A stretch of 64,000 nucleotides of DNA, taken from contig OY740786.1 in the NCBI GenBank assembly GCA_963514005.1, positions 66,340,001 to 66,404,000 of the forward strand, read 5' to 3'. The position numbers and the translations under genes were made by a program. How positions within the stretch are numbered: position 1 is the first letter of the stretch; every line of letters starts with the position of its first letter. Shown here one piece after another: positions 2,343-62,120 of this stretch. Source of the stretch: Raja brachyura (lineage: Eukaryota). The notes beneath the pieces were generated by a model. The model was not told the DNA's origin and did no database searches. It saw only the letters and a list, made by a program, of their open reading frames with translations.

Positions 2343-2381
2343 AATAAGGATTAAAAGTACCACTATTGCTTATTTAAGTAC

Positions 2382-2470
2382 CTCTTGATCCAGATTATAT
2401 TCTTCACTCGAATTAAGGGCCAGTTTTACTGTCAGGTAGTTTCCATTTTTCACTGCATCACGCAACACAC
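2382..2470 (-). CDS. MPHOSPH8: MPP8 coding exon 7, start of ankyrin region (VLRDAVKNGNYLTVKLALNSSEEYNLDQE)
   Basis: Matches human VLRDAVKNGDYITVKVALNSNEEYNLDQE; acceptor ctgtag|, donor GAG|gtactt; remaining exons lie left of the window. Confidence 0.96.
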
Positions 2471-2729: not shown

Positions 2730-3060
2730 TGTAATAGGCATCTACACCCAAAATGAGATGTTCCATACCAAGACATCTGAGATGTCCTCATTCTTCAGGG
2801 AACAGGGGACCCCCTCTTCCATCATAGACAAAACCCTCACACATGTCTCCTCGGTACCCCACAGCTCCCCTCTTGCTCTCCCTAGCCGCAATAGGGACAG
2901 TGTCTCCCTAGTCTTTACCTTTCACCCCATCAGCCATCGCATACAACACATAATCATCCGACCTTTTCGCCATCTCTCACCACGAGTCACATCTTCCCAT
3001 TTGCACCCCTTTCCGCCTTCCGCAGAGACCGTTCCCTCTGCAACTCCTCGGTTAACACTC
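2730..3060 (+). mobile_element. Penelope-like element fragment
   Basis: FHTKTSEMSSFFREQG...LVFTFHP matches the PLE ORF at 29822..30850. Confidence 0.85.
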
Positions 3061-3084
3061 CTTCTCCCTGGTCTCTCCTCACAG

Positions 3085-3665
3085 TAACTTGTCTATTGTC
3101 TCCCCTGTCCCGGTGGCCGCGGGGGGGGGGGGGGGGGGTTCAGTGGAGGCCCTGGACCCATTACTCTCTCCCTCATCATTCACCCCTCTCCCCCGCCTGC
3201 CCTTTGCGGCAATGGTGATCCCGTCTACCCGTCCCCTTGGGTCCGTCTCCTCCGCCCCTGCGGTAACTCACCCTCACGGCCTCCTCGGAGATCTTCTCCA
3301 CCAGCTCATCGAAATTCGTGGTGCCCACCATGACGAACACCGACTCCAACCCCCACCCCGGCAGCGAACAGGCAGACAACGGGCCAAGCGGCAGCAGTGG
3401 GCTGGCGGGGACAGGCTGAGATGTCGGCTGAGCCGGAGTGGGCAGAGGGAGGGAGGGAGAGTTGGGTTGCAGGGTGGCCGAGCAGTTTGCGTGGAGTTTG
3501 AGTAACTCACACACACACACAATGAATATAGTTGAAATATTGTGTTGGGGGGACGGATTACATTGGCGGAAAACGGACGAGTGGTGGAATATTGCATTGG
3601 GGAATGGGTTGCGTTGGGGGACCAGGCCTCCCGTGTGACAGGGACCTGGGTCCCACTTAGTCTAG
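3085..3665 (+). mobile_element. Helitron 3' portion carrying a captured gene fragment
   Basis: Ends in hairpin GGGACC-TG-GGTCCC, then ACTTAGT-CTAG|T (3662-3665); subterminal sequence shared with the Helitron end at ~62015-62071; 5' boundary uncertain. Confidence 0.75.
3272..3349 (-). pseudogene. ALG13: Captured ALG13 exon 1 fragment (LESVFVMVGTTNFDELVEKISEEAVR|gtgagt)
   Basis: Resembles the ALG13 N-terminus MKCVFVTVGTTSFDDL; followed by a consensus donor; no ATG (TTG instead); no further exons nearby. Confidence 0.78.
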
Positions 3666-3861: not shown

Positions 3862-3981
3862 TGTTGGATATCACTTTTGGTGGAGAAAGTAAATCATCAT
3901 TTCCATCCAGATGTTTTTGAAAATCTTCCAATGTCATCCAATCAAGCTGCAAGTCCACACCCAATTTAAGCATTTTGCCAT
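3862..3981 (-). CDS. MPHOSPH8: MPP8 coding exon 6 (DGKMLKLGVDLQLDWMTLEDFQKHLDGNDD...)
   Basis: Matches human LGMDLQLEWMKLEDFQKHLDG; acceptor tttag|, donor A|gtgagt; 120 nt. Confidence 0.95.
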
Positions 3982-6910: not shown

Positions 6911-8295
6911 ATTAATGGAAAATTAATTCAGTGGGCAAATTAATGGAAAAGATACTTAGAGATAATATATATAAGTATCTGGATAAAGAGGGTCTAATTA
7001 GGAACAGTCAACATGGATTTATGCCTGGAAGGTCATGTTTGACTAATCTTCTTGAATTTTTTGAAGAGGTTACTAGGAAAATTGACGAGGGTAAAGCAGT
7101 GGATGTTGTCTATATGGACTTCAGTAAGGCCTTTGACAAGGTTCCTCATGGAAGGTTGGTTAAGAAGGTTCAACTGTTTGGTATAAATGCAGGAATAGCA
7201 AGATGGATTCAACAGTGGCTGAATGGGAGAAGCCAGAGGGTAATGGTGGATGGCTGTTTGTCGGGTTGGAGGCAGGTGACTAGTGGGTCCTTTGGGATCA
7301 GGGATCTGTGTTGGGTCCTTTGTTGTTTGTCATGTACACCAATGATCTGGATGAAGGGGTGGTAAATTGGATTAGTAAGTATGCAGATGATTCCAAGATA
7401 GGGGGTGTTGTGGATAATGAAGAGGATTTCCAAAGTCTACAGAGTGATTTAGGCCAGTTGGAAAAATGGGCTGAAAGATGGCAGATGGAGTTTAATGCTG
7501 ATACATGTGAGGTGCTACACCTTGGCAGGACAAATCAAAATAGGACGTACATGGTAAACGGTAGGGAATTGAAGAATACAGTTGAACAGAGGGATCTTGG
7601 AATAACCGTGCATAGTTCCTTGAAGGTGGAATCTCACATAGATAGGGTGGTAAAGAAAGCTTTTGGTATGCTAGCCTTTATAAATCAGAGCATTGAGTAT
7701 AGAAGCTGGGATGTAATGTTAAAATTGTACAAGGCATTGGTGAGACCAAATCTGGAGTATGGTGTACAATTTTGGTCGCCCAATTATAGGAAGGATGTCA
7801 ACAAAATAGAGAGGGTACAGAGGCGATTTACTAGAATGTTGCCTGGGTTTCAACAGCTAAGTTACAGAGAGAGGTTGAGTAAGTTAGGTCTTTATTCTCT
7901 GGAGCGCAGAAGGTTAAGGGGGGACTTGATAGAGGTCTTTAAAATGATGAGAGGGATAGACAGATTTGATGTGGACAAGCTTTTCCCTTTGAGAATAGGG
8001 AAGATTCAAACAAGAGGACATGACTTTAGAATTAAGGGACAGAGGTTTAGGGGTAACATGAGGGGGAACTTCTTTACTCAGAGAGTGGTAGCGGTGTGGA
8101 ATGAGCTTCCAGTGGAAGTGGTGGCGGCAGGTTCGTTGGTATCATTTAAAAATAAATTGGATAGGCATATGGATGAGAAGGGTATGGAGGGTTATGGTAT
8201 GAGTGCAGGCAGGTGGGACTAAGGGAAAAAAGTTGTTCGGCACGGACTTGAAGGGCCGAGATGGCCTGTTTCCGTGCTGTAATTGTTATATGGTT
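6911..8295 (+). mobile_element. CR1 LINE, 5'-truncated RT and C-terminus, inserted into a short Penelope-derived element
   Basis: QHGF.PGRSCLTNL, YMDFSKAFDKVPH, LGPLLF, KYADD, RRLRGDLI, WNELP; one frameshift near 7290; ATCTA duplicated at 6906-6910 and 8296-8300. Confidence 0.95.
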
Positions 8296-25212: not shown

Positions 25213-25317
25213 CTCAGAAACTTTCATGTCCACTATCCTCTCCACTTCGTATACATCTTCCTCTGCTTCGCTTTCTTGCTCAGAATGCTCAGATTTCTCC
25301 GCCTCCACCGCCGCCAT
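25213..25317 (-). CDS. MPHOSPH8: MPP8 coding exon 1 (MAAVEAEKSEHSEQESEAEEDVYEVERIVDMKVSE), start of chromodomain
   Basis: ATG at 25317; EDVYEVERIVDMK matches human MPP8 EDVFEVEKILDMK; donor GAG|gtagga; 105 nt, phase 0. Confidence 0.93.
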
Positions 25318-25994: not shown

Positions 25995-27152
25995 AGACAA
26001 AAATGCTGGAGAAACTCAGCGGTGAGGCAGCATCTGTGGCAAAGATACTCTTTGATCAATGGAGCGAAGGAAATAGGCAACGTTTCGGAGAAGAAAGGAA
26101 GAGGTGGAGCCAGTGGGCTGAGGGAGAGCTGAGAAGGGGAGGAGAAAGTAAGGACTACCTGAAATTAGAGAAGTCAATGTTCATACTGCTGAGGTGCAAA
26201 CTGCCCAAGCGAAATATGAGGTGCTGCTTCTCCAATTTACAGTGGTCCTCACTCTGGGCATGCGAGGAACCTGAGGACAGACAGGTCGGATTTGGAATGG
26301 GAGGGGAAGTTGAAGTGCTGAGCCACTGGGAGATCAGGTTGGTTATTGCGAACTGAGAGGAGGCGTCCGGCGAAGCGATCAACAAGCCTACGCTTGGTCT
26401 CACCGCTGTAGAGCAGCTGATATCTGGAGCAGCGAATGCAATAGATGAGGTTGGAGGAGGTGCAGGTGAACCTCTGCCGCACCTGGAAAGACTGCTTGGG
26501 TCCTTGGGGGGAGGTAAAGGGGGGGGGGGGGGGGGGGTAAGTGTAGCATTTCTTGCAGTTGCAAGGCAAAGTGCCCGGAGAGGGGGTGGTTTGGGTGGGA
26601 AGGAACAAATTGACCAGGGAGTTATGGAGGGAGCGGTCTCTGCGGAAAGGAGACTGGGGAGGCAGACGGGGGGGAGATGGGAAGATGTGGCAAGTGGTGG
26701 GGTCATGTTGGAGGTGGCGAAAATGACGGAGGATTATTTGTTGTATGTGACGGCTGGTAGGGTGGAAGGTGAGGAGAAGGGGGACTCTGCCATTGTTACA
26801 AGTGGGGGGGATGGGGAATGAGAGTAGTCACGGGGTATAGAAGAGGCCCTGGTGAGAGCCTCATCTATGGTAGAAGAGAGGAGCCCCCGTTCCCTGAAGA
26901 ATGAAGACATCTCCGATGGCCTGGTGTGGAACACCTCATCCTGGGTGCAGATGTGGCGTAGACGGAGGAAGTGGGAGTAGGGGATGGAATCCTTAAAGGA
27001 AGCAGGGTGGGAAGAAGTGCAGTCCAGATAGGCATGGGAGTCAGTGGGTTTATAGTGGATGTCGGTCAGGAGTCTATCCCCTGCGATGGAGATAGTGAGG
27101 TCAAGAAATGGTAAGGAAATGGTCCAGTTGTATTTGAGTGCTGGATGGAATT
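25995..27152 (-). mobile_element. Penelope-like element fragment (RT thumb, GIY-YIG, pseudo-LTR)
   Basis: SLPFLDLTI, HYKPTDSH.YLD, FTCTSSNLIYCIRC, Y.GETKRRL. Confidence 0.92.
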
Positions 27153-29179: not shown

Positions 29180-30850
29180 GGGTTACACAAAAAGCTGGAG
29201 AAACTCAGCGGGTGCAGCAGCATCTAAGGAGCGAAGGAGATAGGCGACGTTTCAGGTTGAGACCCTTCTTCAGACTGGTTAGGGATCAGGGAAACGAGAG
29301 ATATAGACAGTGATGTGGAGAGATAAAGAACAATGAATTAAAGATATGCAAAAAAGTATCGATGATAAAGGAAACAGGCCATTGTAAGCTGTTTGTAGTG
29401 TGAAAATGAGAAGCTAGTGCGACTTGGGTGGGGGGGGAGATAGAGAGAGAAGGAATGCCAGGGCTCGAGGGCTGAGGGAGAGGTGGGGAGGAGGCGGCCT
29501 GGGTTAACAGAATTGAGAAAATTCAATGTTTAAGCCCAGAGGATGCAGACTCCCCAAGCGGAATAGGAGGTGCTGTTCCTCCAACTTGCGGTGTTGCTCA
29601 CTCTGGCCGTGGAGGAAGCTCAGGACCGAGAGGTCGGATACGGAATGGGAGGGAGAGTTGAAATGCTGAGCCACTGGGAGGTCGGGTTGGTTATTGCGGA
29701 CCGAGCGGAGGTGTTCGGCGAAACGATCGCCCAGCCTCCGCTTGGTCTCACCGACGTAGATCAGCTGGCTTCTGGAGCAATGGATGCAGTAGATGAGGTT
29801 GGAGGAGGTGCAGGTGAACCTCTATCGGACTTGGAAGGACTGCTTGGGTCCCTGAAAGCAGTGGATGGGGGAGGTGAAGGGACAAGTGTAGCATCTCTTG
29901 CGGTTGCAAAGGAAAGTGCCCGGGGAAGGGAAGAATTGACAAGGGAGTTGCGGAGGGAGCGGTCTTTGCGGAAGGCAGACGGGGGGAGATGGGAAGATGT
30001 TGCGAGTGGAGGGGTCACACTGGAGGTGGCGAAACTGGCGGAGGACTATCTGTTGTATGCGCCGGCTAGTGGGGTGAAAGGTGAGGACCAGGGGGACTCT
30101 GCCCTTGTTTTGAGTGGGGGAATGGGGAGAGTGGGCAGTGTGGCGTGGTATGGAGGAGACCCTGGTGCGAGCCTCATCTATAGTGGGGGAGGGTAAACCC
30201 CGTTCTCTAAAGAACGAGGACATTTGTGATGACCTGGTGTGGAACACCTCATCCTGGGAGCAGATGCGGCGTAGACGGAGGAATTGGGAATATGGGATGG
30301 AGTCCTTACAGGAAGCAGGGTGGGAGGAAGAGTAGTCCAGGTAGCTGTGGGAGTCAGTTGGTTTGTAGTGGATGTCGGTCAGGAGTGTATCACCTGCAAT
30401 AGAGATGGTGAGGTCAAGGAATGGTAGGGAAATGTCGGAAATGGTCGAAGTGTAACGGAGGTAAAGGTCGGGGGTGGGGCCCTGGTACGCCGAGAACAAA
30501 GATTGTTCGACGTGCCCGACAAAGAGGCAGGCGTAGCTAGGGCCCATGCGTGTGCCCATAGCTACGCCTTGTGTTTGGAGGAAATGGGAGGAGTCAAAAG
30601 AGAAGTTATTGAAGGTAAGGACCAACTCTGCTAGGCGGAGGAGGGTGTCAGTGAACAGGTATGGGTTGCTCCTCTGGTCGAGGAAGTACCGGAGGGCTTT
30701 GAGACCATCCTGGTGGGGGATGGAGGTGTATGGTGAAGATGAGGGGATGGGGGCCTGGGGAATGGAATGCGTGGAGCCAACGGAGAGTGTCTGAGATGTC
30801 TTGAACATAGGTGGGGAGGGATTTAACAAAGGGGGATAGGATGGAGTCAA
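29180..30850 (-). mobile_element. Penelope-like retroelement (RT plus GIY-YIG), 5'-truncated, with 13-bp TSD
   Basis: YTSIPH, QTQGVAMGTRMGPSYA, YLRY (catalytic DD segment deleted), PFLD and GIY-YIG motifs; TTTTTTACAAACA at 29167-29179 and 30851-30863. Confidence 0.95.
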
Positions 30851-45398: not shown

Positions 45399-47028
45399 TT
45401 ACTTCCAGAATTCTCTGAGGATAAAGGCAACAAAAATAAGTTTCTGAAGCGCGGTGAAGGACTAGCAAGATTTTCAAAAATCAAGTCGCGTAATCTAGCA
45501 ACTATCAAACCCGATAGGGAAGATAACCTAACCGACCAGGATTCTGTAAGTTTAAAGAAGCCAACTTGTCAACCGATGCTGAGGAAATTGACACTTTTAA
45601 ACAAGGAAAGACATAATACTGTCTCAACCAGGATTGGCGACAAACCAAAGGCATTTGGAAAAGGAAAGAACTACTCTGCACTGTGCATTAAAAAAGTAGC
45701 TGTCTCAGGAAATTGTAATGAAGATGATGTCTTCCAGCCACCTCTGCAGGCAGAGGAAATAATACATGCATCCGAAGTTCATGTTCAAAATGTCTATCAA
45801 ACGGGTTGTATAAATGTGGTTCAGGAGTATGAACAAATAAAGACAAAACAAATTGGACAAGACAGTAAATCTCTGCAAAAACTAACATCAGTGCATGAAG
45901 CTGAGAGATTGCAAAAAAGTGCAGAAAATATACTTCCCACTTGCCCAAATGAAAGAGCAAAAAATGGAGTTGAGAATTCATTTGAGAGATCATTTCAGAA
46001 AAAGATGAAGAACTGGAACAAGGACAATGAGAAAGAAATCGTTGAATTGAATGAGTTTGAGTTTTTGGAGCAGGCAGCTGAAGAACTTTCCTTCTCCAGT
46101 AATTCCTCTTTTGTGCTAAAAATGGTACACAATGATTGGCAATACAACAAAGATCGCAGGTTGTCCTCCACCCCAATAAAATCTGTTCAACATCATAAAA
46201 TGCTTGAAAGTCCATGTGATACAACGCACACCAGAAAGCTGGCTGATAGGGATAAGGAAAATGTTAAAAGTAATTGTGTGGTATTAGAGACAAAGTGCAA
46301 AAGTATTTTTGATCCACCAGTCAGCAATGAAGCAGTGATTCAAAATGTTGAAAATGATTCCCAAGAATATCGGTATGCTATTTGTGATACCACTTCAGAT
46401 TCGGAGGGAGATCTTGATTGTACACTGACAAATGACAATAAAACACGGGTGCAGTCAGTGATCTGCAGTAGTGACAAAGAAGATGATCCTAAATCTGTGT
46501 GTGGAAGACAACCAACGGACAGTTTCAACAAAGACAAGAATATGGACACAGATCTTGACCTGTCATCTGATGATAGTGACGATGATGTTGAAATGTTGAC
46601 TGTGATAGAAAAAGATAAACTTGGGTTGAGCCAGAAAGCAGATTCCTCTCTCTTTTATACTGAAAGCAAAAGCAGCACATCTTTGCATCAAGAAAAGGTT
46701 GAGTTTGATGATGACCAAACATGGACTGACCAAGATGAAACTGAATTAATTAAGGTTGAAGATAGCTCAGCAGTGCCTGTCCATACTTCTGTATTAGTAA
46801 CTCAAAGTATCTCTTCCAGTAAAGTTACTGAGGACAAAGTTATGAGAAGAAAAATTGCTTCTGCTAAAAAGGAGATTGAGTGTGAAAATTATTTGAACAA
46901 ATTTGAAGAATCCCCTCCTACATCGGATCTAATCACAAGATTATTTCCTTCACTGAAACCCAAGTCAAAGCCTGAGTCTCTTCAAGGGCTGGAACAGAAA
47001 TCTAAAATCGTGAATGACAAACCATCAG
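45399..47028 (+). CDS. CENPJ: CPAP large central exon
   Basis: FLKRGEGLARF, ELNEFEFLEQAAEELSFSSNSSFV, RRLSSTPIK, EFDDDQTW and PPTSDLITRLFPSLKPK are CPAP motifs; contains ORF 45576..47072; acceptor ttatag|, donor G|gtatag. Confidence 0.95.
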
Positions 47029-47952
47029 GTATAGTTCACATCATTTTTCATTTTGATATAAAAGTAATTTAGCATCTTTCAGGCATCTCAGATCGAGGGA
47101 AGAAAAATAATTTCCAAACAGCCGCTGGTTTTAAATGTAACATCTCCAATACCTTTTTGGTATGTTAAAAAAAATCTTTTTTTGTCTTGAACTTTATATG
47201 TACTAATTTAGGATGTGGTCAGTCCATCAATGGTGGTATAGAGTAGGATGGAACGGAAATTTAAAGCTGTGAAGATAAATCATTAACTTCAAATCGATTG
47301 TAAATTAAAAAGGCTTCACCAGAAATTGAACTTTGCCTTTTCTCTATTGATTGGTTGCAGTTCCTTTGATCTTATTTCCCAACAAGCCAGCCATACAGCA
47401 TGAAAACGGGCAAATTATGTCCACACCAACCAATGGGCATTCATCAGCATTAATCTTGCCTACCGGCTCTTGGACCATAGCCATCTATACCTCGGCGATT
47501 TTTTAAAGTACGCATCTAGTTACTTTATACATGCTGCAGTACACTTTTCCCCATATGAGGGGTGAATAAAACTAGAGGACATAGATTTAGGTTAATGCTA
47601 ATAAAAACCTAGGGGGTCCATTCTCACCCGAGAATGTCGATTGTCTAGAATGCACTGCCAGAGAGTGTGGTAGGAGCACAGTAATCTCACCCCTCATTTG
47701 GGGAAAAGGTTAGAAAACGTCCAACGGAACGCGGCAGAAATAGATACATAAAGAGCAGCCAGTTATGAACTTGGTATCGCCCAACTTAATTGCATTGAGT
47801 TGCTGTGTGTGTCTGAGTAATTGAAAAGAAGCTGAACCTTCAGGATATTTGGAAATCAGGTCGAGACATACTCTGTATTAAAGTGCATTGTTGACAAGTA
47901 GTAAGTGGTCTGTCATCCACCATGACTTTAGGCTTTCAAACTAAAATACATA

Positions 47953-60256: not shown

Positions 60257-62120
60257 TGTGAAAGTCTGCCGAGCTTCCAGTGTAAAATAACTCAAAACAC
60301 AAGTCTCAGTGAACGAGTCTTTACTAGAAGTCACACCCGGGTGATAAGAGGACAGTCACTTATATGGACACGGAGTCCATACAAGAGGCTGCCGCTGTCC
60401 CTTCCTGAGCATACAAGCGAAATACAGTGTATACAGATAAAGCAGCTCGAAGCACATGGTTGTGAACAAAGGCACTCAGTTAAAAGAAGAGATACATATT
60501 GAAGTTCCTTAGACAGGTTAGGGAGGCATGGGAGAAAGAAGAGTATGGTCAGCTGGACATAGCTAAAGGCCCCATTGTTTGATAACACACGGACTACGAG
60601 ATGTTACCATTAGAATGGAATGTCACAAGGACGAGAATGGCTCTTATCTATGTTCTCTCAGCTACTGCAAGGCCGTTCTGCCGGATGACTGCAAAAGCCT
60701 GTTTTACTATATGCTAACATCTTTAACTGAAAATGGAGGTTATCTATATTACTAAAAGTCTGATCTTGACCACTTCTTGTTGTTCTGTATATTGATTGTA
60801 GAAAGAACGCTGCCACTTACTCCTATGATTTTTGGCCATCTTACTCGGAGTCCCCCTCCGCTGTGCAGGACAAGAGGATTATTCTCATCGATACAAAATA
60901 AAAGAGTTATTAGTTTTTAAAAAATGTTGAGATTCTCTCCTGAAGGCCACGCCCCTTCCGGAGGGACTATAAAACCCGGAAGTGTTGAGTGCCTCAGTCT
61001 CTGCAAGATGGGGGAGCGAGAGGGTCACGTCTCTCAGTCTGAGCTGTGAATAACACTGAACACGTGTCCACTAAACTGCGAGTGTGGTTTTACTAACCTT
61101 GAGTGCCCTTAATGTGGTTTGAAAATGAAAATATGGTTGGGTTGAAATAAAGCACAGCAAATGGTTGGTGGTGGTTGCTTTGAAATAAAGCACAGCAAAT
61201 GGTTGGTGGTGGTTGGATTGAAATAAAGCACAGCAAATGGTTAGTTTGAAATAAAGTACAGCAAATGGTTGGTGGTGGGTGTTTTGAAATGGCAAATGAT
61301 TAAAAGTCTAAACTTGACAACTTCCTGTTTGCACTGTATATTGATTTTAGATAAAACACTACCACTTAGGGCTGTGAATTTTGGCCATCTTACTCAGTCC
61401 CCCTCTGCTCATCAGGTGCAGAGGATTCTTCCCATCAATGAAAATAAAAGTGTTATTAGTGTTTAAAAAATGTTGAGAATCTGTCTCCTGTCAATCATGC
61501 CATTAAGGCTCCTGGTGAGAAGGGGGATTATAAAACCCGGAAGTATGGGTGGGGCTCAGTCTCTGCAAGATGGGGGAAGGAGAGGTCACGACTCTGAGCT
61601 GTGAATCAACTAAACACATTGAATGTCTACTGAACTGCGAGTGTAGTGTTTTGTGTGGTTTTATGGTGGTTTCACCCTGCTTGAAATGTTATGAAACTGC
61701 ATTTGAATTTGGTGGCCTTGCACCCAACTTGAAATGGTATGAAACTGCACTTGAATTTGGTGGCCTTGCACCCTGCTTGAAGTGGTATGAAACTGCATTT
61801 GAGTCAACTGCCAGCCCACCAGCCGTGAGTGAGATGCCAGCACATCAAGCTTGAGTGACTGAGCTGCCACCCCAATAATCCATTTGGCCCACAATGTGCA
61901 TACTAGCCCTCTGGAAACCAGTCCCAGCCCCTTCAGCCCACAACACCCATACTAGCGCTCCAGAAAGCCCCCCCCCCCCAACTGGCCACCAATATTGGAA
62001 TTGGTGGAGAGGTGGAATATTGAGTTGGAGGAGCAGCCCTCCCGTGTGAACATGTGTCCCACTTAGTCTAGTAGCGAATATAAGCTAAATAAAATGGCGG
62101 CTGGCACATTAACTTTTACA
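60257..62120 (-). promoter_or_regulatory. ERV 5' LTR (~535 bp after removing the inserted Helitron)
   Basis: TG...CA ends with imperfect inverted repeats; TATAAG near 60360 and AGTAAA near 60323 on the minus strand. Confidence 0.85.
60743..62071 (+). mobile_element. Complete non-autonomous Helitron inserted in the LTR
   Basis: A|TC...CTAG|T insertion without TSD; internal ~350-bp duplication and short tandem repeats. Confidence 0.88.

What the first reader, a model, noticed from the sequence alone, without database searches (positions are those of the whole stretch)
3085..3665. Helitron carrying a captured ALG13 first exon with splice donor and CpG-island flanks, inside an MPHOSPH8 intron
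Seen: the minus strand at 3349-3272 reads LESVFVMVGTTNFDELVEKISEEAVR, followed by a consensus donor AGG|GTGAGT, within GC-rich DNA; the segment ends in a Helitron-type hairpin and CTAG|T shared with the Helitron at 60743-62071. Known: ALG13 begins MKCVFVTVGTTSFDDL and, as I recall, its first exon is about 27 codons; Helitrons capture host gene pieces at the DNA level (maize, vespertilionid bats). Inference: this is DNA-level capture of the ALG13 promoter, exon 1 and start of intron 1, because the retained donor argues against retrotransposition. The fragment is sense to MPHOSPH8, between exons 6 and 7, so it supplies a cryptic donor just before the ankyrin exons. I do not know of Helitron gene capture being described in chondrichthyans.
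Basis: partly seen in the sequence, partly recalled or inferred. Interest (0 to 1): 0.82.

Follow-up and report, generated by a model that had tools for sequence, protein, structure and literature searches.

The report
Skate Helitron carrying ALG13 first exon
A rolling-circle jumping element in a skate-like fish carries a copy of the start of the housekeeping gene ALG13 (upstream DNA, first exon and splice site) at hundreds of places in the genome, and the damaged copy inside the MPHOSPH8 gene is likely a harmless passenger.

Summary
Capture confirmed; effect on MPHOSPH8 not supported. Window 3075-3665 is a truncated copy of a non-autonomous Helitron family: 170 exact hits to an exon 21-mer against 0 for the control, roughly 550-850 copies. 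The internal piece aligns to the real ALG13 gene on another contig: upstream DNA, exon 1 and about 100 bases of intron 1. Exons 2 and 3 hit 0 of 70 family loci, so capture was from DNA. Full copies run A|TC...hairpin-CTAG|T without target duplication, with paralogous empty sites. The exon copies drift neutrally and lose CpGs. This copy has lost its 5' end, ATG and CpG-island status. Its donor is out of frame with exon 7, and RNA-like contigs of 4 of 4 runs show only the normal splice. It closely parallels bat HelibatN3/NUBPL. My searches found no such report in cartilaginous fishes. The scan noted Helitron gene capture before on other DNA (mosses).

The parts
3075..3665 (+). Truncated, internally deleted copy of a non-autonomous Helitron family (lacks about 337 bases of 5' arm and about 610 internal bases relative to a 1542-base copy)
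3075..3164 (+). Remnant of the family's segment between the 5' arm and the clear ALG13 homology; origin not found
3165..3271 (-). Captured start of ALG13 intron 1, beginning with the donor GTGAGT (3271-3266)
3272..3349 (-). Captured ALG13 coding exon 1 (start codon mutated, one codon deleted; 20 of 27 residues identical to the host exon)
3350..3524 (-). Captured ALG13 5' UTR and upstream DNA, CpG-decayed; holds two candidate splice acceptors (exon starts 3427 and 3401) that would both give a premature stop
3533..3665 (+). Helitron 3' arm with shortened hairpin (3641-3654) and terminal CTAG (3662-3665), followed by T
2739..3055 (-). Fragment of another repeat abutting the truncated end; 69-70% like window 26610-26953 and 29944-30267, which lies in a reverse-transcriptase-like frame (Penelope-like label is recalled, not tested)
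3862..3981 (-). MPHOSPH8 exon 6 (upstream of the insertion; intron phase 1)
2381..2470 (-). MPHOSPH8 exon 7 (downstream of the insertion)
60743..62071 (+). Related non-autonomous Helitron of another family; shares only the terminal 40-60 bases with the ALG13 family, and both ends with RepHel-bearing loci

Best explanation
This is an old, damaged copy of a non-autonomous Helitron family that carries about 540 bases of the ALG13 gene's 5' end between its two arms; the piece was likely copied from genomic DNA once, likely spread to hundreds of sites by a RepHel transposase supplied in trans, and this copy is likely inert in its MPHOSPH8 intron. Shown: the ALG13 origin and extent of the piece, its antisense position inside Helitron ends, dispersed copies, insertion between A and T without target duplication, neutral decay. 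Inferred: capture by a template switch or recombination inside an existing element (both arms are shared with sister elements that lack the piece, and the upstream junction joins into a repeat unit of the 3' arm at a 3-base overlap) rather than plain read-through to a new end; mobilisation in trans; silencing by germline methylation; capture before the host's Glu2-to-Ala change.
For: Source gene: exons 2 and 3 found by Pfam on C13, exon 1 lies 5.8 kb upstream; copies align from a dispersed-repeat tail about 345 bases upstream of the ATG to about 100-115 bases into intron 1. A copy's frame finds only ALG13 orthologues (6 of 6 hits among 43 candidates). Exons 2 and 3 hit 0 of 70 family loci. Copy counts 170, 165 and 115 exact hits, controls 0. 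39 of 40 loci picked by the arm motif have an ALG13 hit; 5' end found in 27 of 40 (A before it in 24), 3' end in 18 of 40 (T after it in 17); 3' end followed by T in 18 of 18 found among the first 30 loci. No target duplication over 2 bases in 22 of 23 full copies; joined flanks match an uninterrupted repeat in 5 of 23. RepHel remnants: 96 matches; two of 10 examined end in the same last 60 bases at 81-84%. Neutral exon: 121 synonymous changes against 135.6 expected, p 0.13, 13 frameshifts, in 59 of 70 copies; 503 of 1551 CpG cells mutated to TpG or CpA. Age: 53 of 59 copies keep the ancestral Glu2 codon base shared with named orthologues; flank contigs of 4 of 4 other organisms run 18-46 bases into the 3' end at this site.
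Against: No autonomous element with this family's 5' arm was found among 10 RepHel loci. The roughly 130-base segment between the 5' arm and the ALG13 piece has no source in the 60 kb around ALG13, so the capture route is not settled and a 3-base overlap can be chance. The orthologous contigs show only the shared 3' end, not the ALG13 piece, at this site. The RNA evidence is assembled contigs of guessed-RNA runs from other or unlabelled organisms, which drop rare isoforms. The donor GT survives in 50 of 59 copies and the ATG in 37 of 59, so many copies remain structurally able to splice.
Confidence: 0.85

Rival explanations
1. Same capture, but by read-through: a Helitron inserted antisense in ALG13 intron 1 bypassed its own end, copied through exon 1 and the promoter, and stopped at or fused with a second Helitron end.
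For: The order in element direction (5' arm, intron, exon, upstream DNA) fits; end bypass is shown experimentally for Helraiser (PMC4778049, passages).
Against: The 3' arm is shared with sister elements and RepHel loci, not a new end; no family 5' motif lies in 60 kb around ALG13 today; the piece joins inside a repeat unit of the arm.
Confidence: 0.35
2. This copy works as an exon trap, alternative promoter or poison exon for MPHOSPH8.
For: Sense orientation, intact GTGAGT, pyrimidine-rich candidate acceptors at 3427 and 3401; bat HelibatN3 copies do this (PMC4778049, passages); the insertion is old and retained.
Against: Only the canonical junction in 4 of 4 RNA-like runs, one from an organism that has the 3' end at this site; ATG lost, out of frame, both candidate exons end in a stop; CpG content decayed; 8.5% divergence from the family majority, like other copies.
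Confidence: 0.07
3. The piece is a retrocopy or spliced RNA fragment that landed in a Helitron.
For: Retroposed mRNAs inside Helitrons exist in bats (PMC4224331, passages).
Against: Intron 1 and upstream repeat DNA are retained, exons 2 and 3 are absent from 0 of 70 loci hit.
Confidence: 0.02
4. The ALG13 likeness is chance, or ALG13's first exon derives from the repeat.
For: The 26-residue peptide is below Pfam's cut-off on its own.
Against: The exon is conserved in named ALG13 proteins from horn shark to platypus; non-coding flanks align too; the ALG13 locus lacks Helitron arms.
Confidence: 0.01

Closest known systems
HelibatN3 of vespertilionid bats carrying NUBPL (PMC4224331 and PMC4778049; passages read)
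   Same: [quoted passage not shown]
   Different: Different lineage (cartilaginous fish) and gene; whole 27-codon coding exon against six codons; no chimeric transcript or protein seen here, whereas a few bat copies drive transcripts.
Heli1Xen1 of Xenopus laevis (PMC12001565; passages read)
   Same: Non-mammalian vertebrate Helitron with captured coding fragments, 17 of 19 from gene 5' ends.
   Different: Young family with low copy numbers per capture (up to 17); here one capture reached hundreds of copies and is old.
Gene-fragment-carrying Helitrons of maize (as described in PMC4778049 passages; otherwise recalled)
   Same: DNA-level capture with most fragments drifting neutrally.
   Different: Maize elements often stack fragments of several genes; only one identified gene here.

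Membership tests
Helitron (canonical, non-autonomous) | 5' terminus begins TC | tested here: met
   Family 5' motif found in 21 of 30 and 27 of 40 loci; missing in the window copy by truncation
Helitron (canonical, non-autonomous) | 3' terminus CTRR | tested here: met
   CTAG at 3662-3665; 3' motif in 18 of 30 and 18 of 40 loci within the fetched range
Helitron (canonical, non-autonomous) | Short hairpin about 11 bases before the 3' end | tested here: met
   7-bp stem in many family copies; shortened to 5 bp in the window copy and no better than shuffles there
Helitron (canonical, non-autonomous) | Insertion between A and T with no target-site duplication | tested here: met
   A before 24 of 27, T after 17 of 18; duplication of at most 2 bases in 22 of 23; gapless empty-site match for L022 (89%) and L164 (77%)
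Helitron (canonical, non-autonomous) | Ends shared with a RepHel-encoding element | tested here: inconclusive
   3' end shared with 2 of 10 RepHel loci at 81-84%; 5' arm matched in 0 of 10, linked only through about 37 bases shared with the 60743 element
Helitron (canonical, non-autonomous) | Rolling-circle mobilisation by RepHel in trans | not testable with these tools
   Needs a transposition assay or circular intermediates
DNA-level gene-fragment capture (HelibatN3 type) | Host exon with flanking intron and upstream DNA between the element's ends, source gene intact elsewhere | tested here: met
DNA-level gene-fragment capture (HelibatN3 type) | Amplification after capture | tested here: met
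DNA-level gene-fragment capture (HelibatN3 type) | Captured promoter and donor drive chimeric transcripts | tested here: inconclusive
   None at this locus in 4 RNA-like contig sets; no chimeric protein among 1 and 6 hits; other loci not tested with RNA
ALG13 exon 1 | Sequence match to ALG13 N-terminus and 27-codon exon ending at a GT donor | tested here: met
Processed retrocopy | Spliced exon junctions, no intron or upstream DNA | tested here: not met

The most novel reading that the evidence does not exclude
This Helitron lineage is a serial collector of housekeeping-gene first exons in skates (ALG13, and a second exon-like, donor-bearing cargo in a larger sister family), and some of the hundreds of ALG13 promoter-exon-donor cassettes act as portable promoters or exon traps that have created new skate transcripts, as HelibatN3 did in bats.
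Probability: 0.22. Interest if true: 0.72.

Novelty: new member of a known kind. Interest (0 to 1): 0.5.

Why it matters
It extends the bat pattern (Helitrons capturing and amplifying a housekeeping promoter, first exon and donor) to cartilaginous fishes, giving an independent vertebrate case in which to ask why gene 5' ends are captured and amplified preferentially, and whether such cassettes are silenced or co-opted. The hundreds of ALG13 pseudo-exons could also confound read mapping, gene models and methylation calls at ALG13 in skates. The MPHOSPH8 copy itself is probably of no consequence.

Tried and rejected
Peptide alone against Pfam and PDB: not significant. First exon statistics cut 8 of 30 rows short by a slicing error; replaced, where 11 of 70 rows with partial or absent exons were dropped. 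No holder of the stretch is on record as RNA, which is no evidence either way; the four RNA-like runs are guesses. Contig depths were not used as copy numbers. No empty orthologous site was seen. The source of the family's 130-base segment was not found near ALG13. A source gene for the sister family's exon-like middle was not found: no protein at E up to 10 among 8000 scored candidates, and 29 of 30 top genome hits sit behind a Helitron 5' arm while the other is a truncated copy. Chimeric-protein searches found only ALG13 (weak, lengths 99-2000 only). Pfam did not name the repeat fragment at 2739-3055. Look-ups of earlier findings for this genome and for the ALG13 words were empty.

Full report
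Observation. The minus strand at 3349-3272 gives the stated peptide and is followed by GTGAGT; CTAG ends at 3665 before a T. The host gene is MPHOSPH8. Its chromodomain exons lie near 25250 and 11040, and the insertion sits in the phase-1 intron between 3862 and 2470, which I count as intron 6. The closest named ALG13 protein is from Leucoraja erinacea, so the host is a skate-like fish.

A family, not a single event. A 331-base query gave 709 first-look candidates, 40 scored, at 73-87% identity for the main matches. Exact motifs from the exon, the upstream piece and the adjacent arm occur 170, 115 and 165 times, controls 0. Overlap of the listed places on the largest 8-9 contigs gives about 550, 690 and 850 copies; this assumes independent survival of motifs and is rough.

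Source of the piece. PF04101 found two ALG13-like exons on C13 among 37 matches; the others cover only the later part of the profile. Exon 1 lies 5.8 kb upstream. Full copies align to this locus from the tail of a dispersed repeat about 345 bases upstream of the ATG, through a TG run and the 5' UTR, the 27-codon exon and about 100-115 bases of intron 1 (the repeat has 81 hits in 42 fetched loci). One RNA-like contig carries 61 bases of the true ALG13 5' UTR. Exons 2 and 3 hit 0 of 70 family loci. A copy's frame finds 6 proteins among 43 candidates, all named ALG13. Capture was therefore from DNA.

Helitron features. The ALG13 piece is antisense to the element. Among the 30 best hits, the 5' motif was found in 21 and the 3' motif in 18, each followed by T. 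I fetched 40 of the 100 listed (165 total) arm-motif places, skipping most that were already fetched or that also held the exact exon motif, so this set leans to diverged exons. Of these, 39 have an ALG13 hit, 27 a 5' end (A before it in 24) and 18 a 3' end (T after it in 17). In 23 full copies, 22 have at most 2 duplicated bases, and the joined flanks of 5 match uninterrupted repeats: gapless for L022 and L164, weak for L016, and with extra TCTA units for L012 and L151. The genome has 96 RepHel-domain matches. Of 10 examined, 2 end about 4.1 kb downstream in the family's last 60 bases at 81-84%; none matched its 5' arm, so the direct partner is unidentified.

The window copy. It holds positions 338-795 and 1408-1542 of a 1542-base copy and abuts a fragment of another repeat. 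Its start codon is mutated, one codon is deleted and the hairpin is shortened. CpG observed/expected is 0.55 against 0.79 at ALG13. It differs from the family majority by 8.5%. Flank contigs from 4 of 4 other organisms, three of them about 4-5% divergent, run 18-46 bases into the Helitron end here, so the insertion is likely older than their split; the ALG13 part at that site is not shown.

Function. In 59 of 70 copies with a near-complete exon, 121 changes are synonymous against 135.6 expected (p 0.13) and 13 have frameshifts; ATG survives in 37 and the donor GT in 50. CpG sites vary 2.5 times more than others, as expected of methylated DNA (inference). Splicing from 3272 to exon 7 would stop after six codons, and both candidate cryptic exons carry stops. 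RNA-like contigs of 4 of 4 runs show the canonical junction and none to 3272; these runs are guessed RNA, from other or unlabelled organisms, and contigs drop rare forms. No chimeric protein appeared (weak).

Mechanism. Both arms are shared with sister elements lacking the piece, no family 5' motif lies within 60 kb around ALG13, and the upstream junction enters a repeat unit of the 3' arm at a 3-base overlap. I favour an internal template switch or recombination over read-through to a new end, about 60 to 40; this is inferred. The copies keep Glu2 as named orthologues do while this host has Ala (53 of 59), so capture likely predates that change.

Known cases and novelty. Bat HelibatN3 amplified the NUBPL promoter, first exon and partial intron to a thousand copies and can trap exons (PMC4224331; PMC4778049; passages only). 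Xenopus Heli1Xen1 captured 19 coding fragments (PMC12001565, passages). A full-text search for helitron with ALG13 gave 0 papers; helitron with skate, genome and repeat gave 2; helitron with shark gave 47, of which 30 were listed, none on capture in cartilaginous fishes by title or abstract start; two broader searches showed none in their 25 and 40 listed rows. Two little-skate genome papers have no 'helitron' in the main text (PMC10115646, PMC9605692; term searches), the dogfish paper only in references (PMC10468316), and a vertebrate survey treats Helitrons as widespread (PMC4350176, passages). I saw no supplements, subscription papers, Repbase or Dfam, where the family may be catalogued. 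Earlier scan notes report Helitron gene capture in mosses (unchecked).

Verdict. A real, well-supported new member of a known kind, in a lineage where I found no report; this particular copy is likely inert. Interest 0.5.

Noticed in passing
L090-L149, L190-L219 (genome-wide): A larger sister family shares the 5' arm (670 exact hits to the terminal 22-mer; only 4 of 30 sampled carry the ALG13 piece) and holds a different GC-rich middle with an exon-like frame followed by a donor-like GTGAGT (121 exact hits to a 26-mer; 1632 first-look candidates). It may be a second capture; no source gene was found.
   Followed up: partly
L012, L151; L013, L019, L023, L025, L026, L174, L177, L180: Some copies carry extra TCTA units at the 5' end that are absent from the empty site (8 and 16 bases), and several show a 3' end fused to a 5' end lacking its first four bases, as if elements insert at the A|T inside their own 5' terminus.
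   Followed up: partly
L152, L163, L166, L171, L176, L177: A minority of copies keeps host-like bases at three exon sites where most copies share a change (host-like in 8, 6 and 8 of 59) and some share an extra intron segment, suggesting successive master elements.
   Followed up: partly
G000 C13:8803280-8804270: The real ALG13 intron 1 holds a GC-rich minisatellite of about 1 kb right after the captured stretch.
   Followed up: no
window 52637 (minus strand): A third Helitron-type 3' end with hairpin and CTAG|T.
   Followed up: no
window 2300-150 (minus strand): Just after exon 7, a TA run followed by a Helitron-like start and a long 22-base tandem array.
   Followed up: no
window 45399-47072 (+): A 557-codon open stretch, probably a large exon of a neighbouring gene (CENPJ is my recalled guess from synteny; untested).
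   Followed up: no
window 6916-8222 (+): Reverse-transcriptase fragments (RVT_1) of a retroelement in MPHOSPH8 intron 3.
   Followed up: partly
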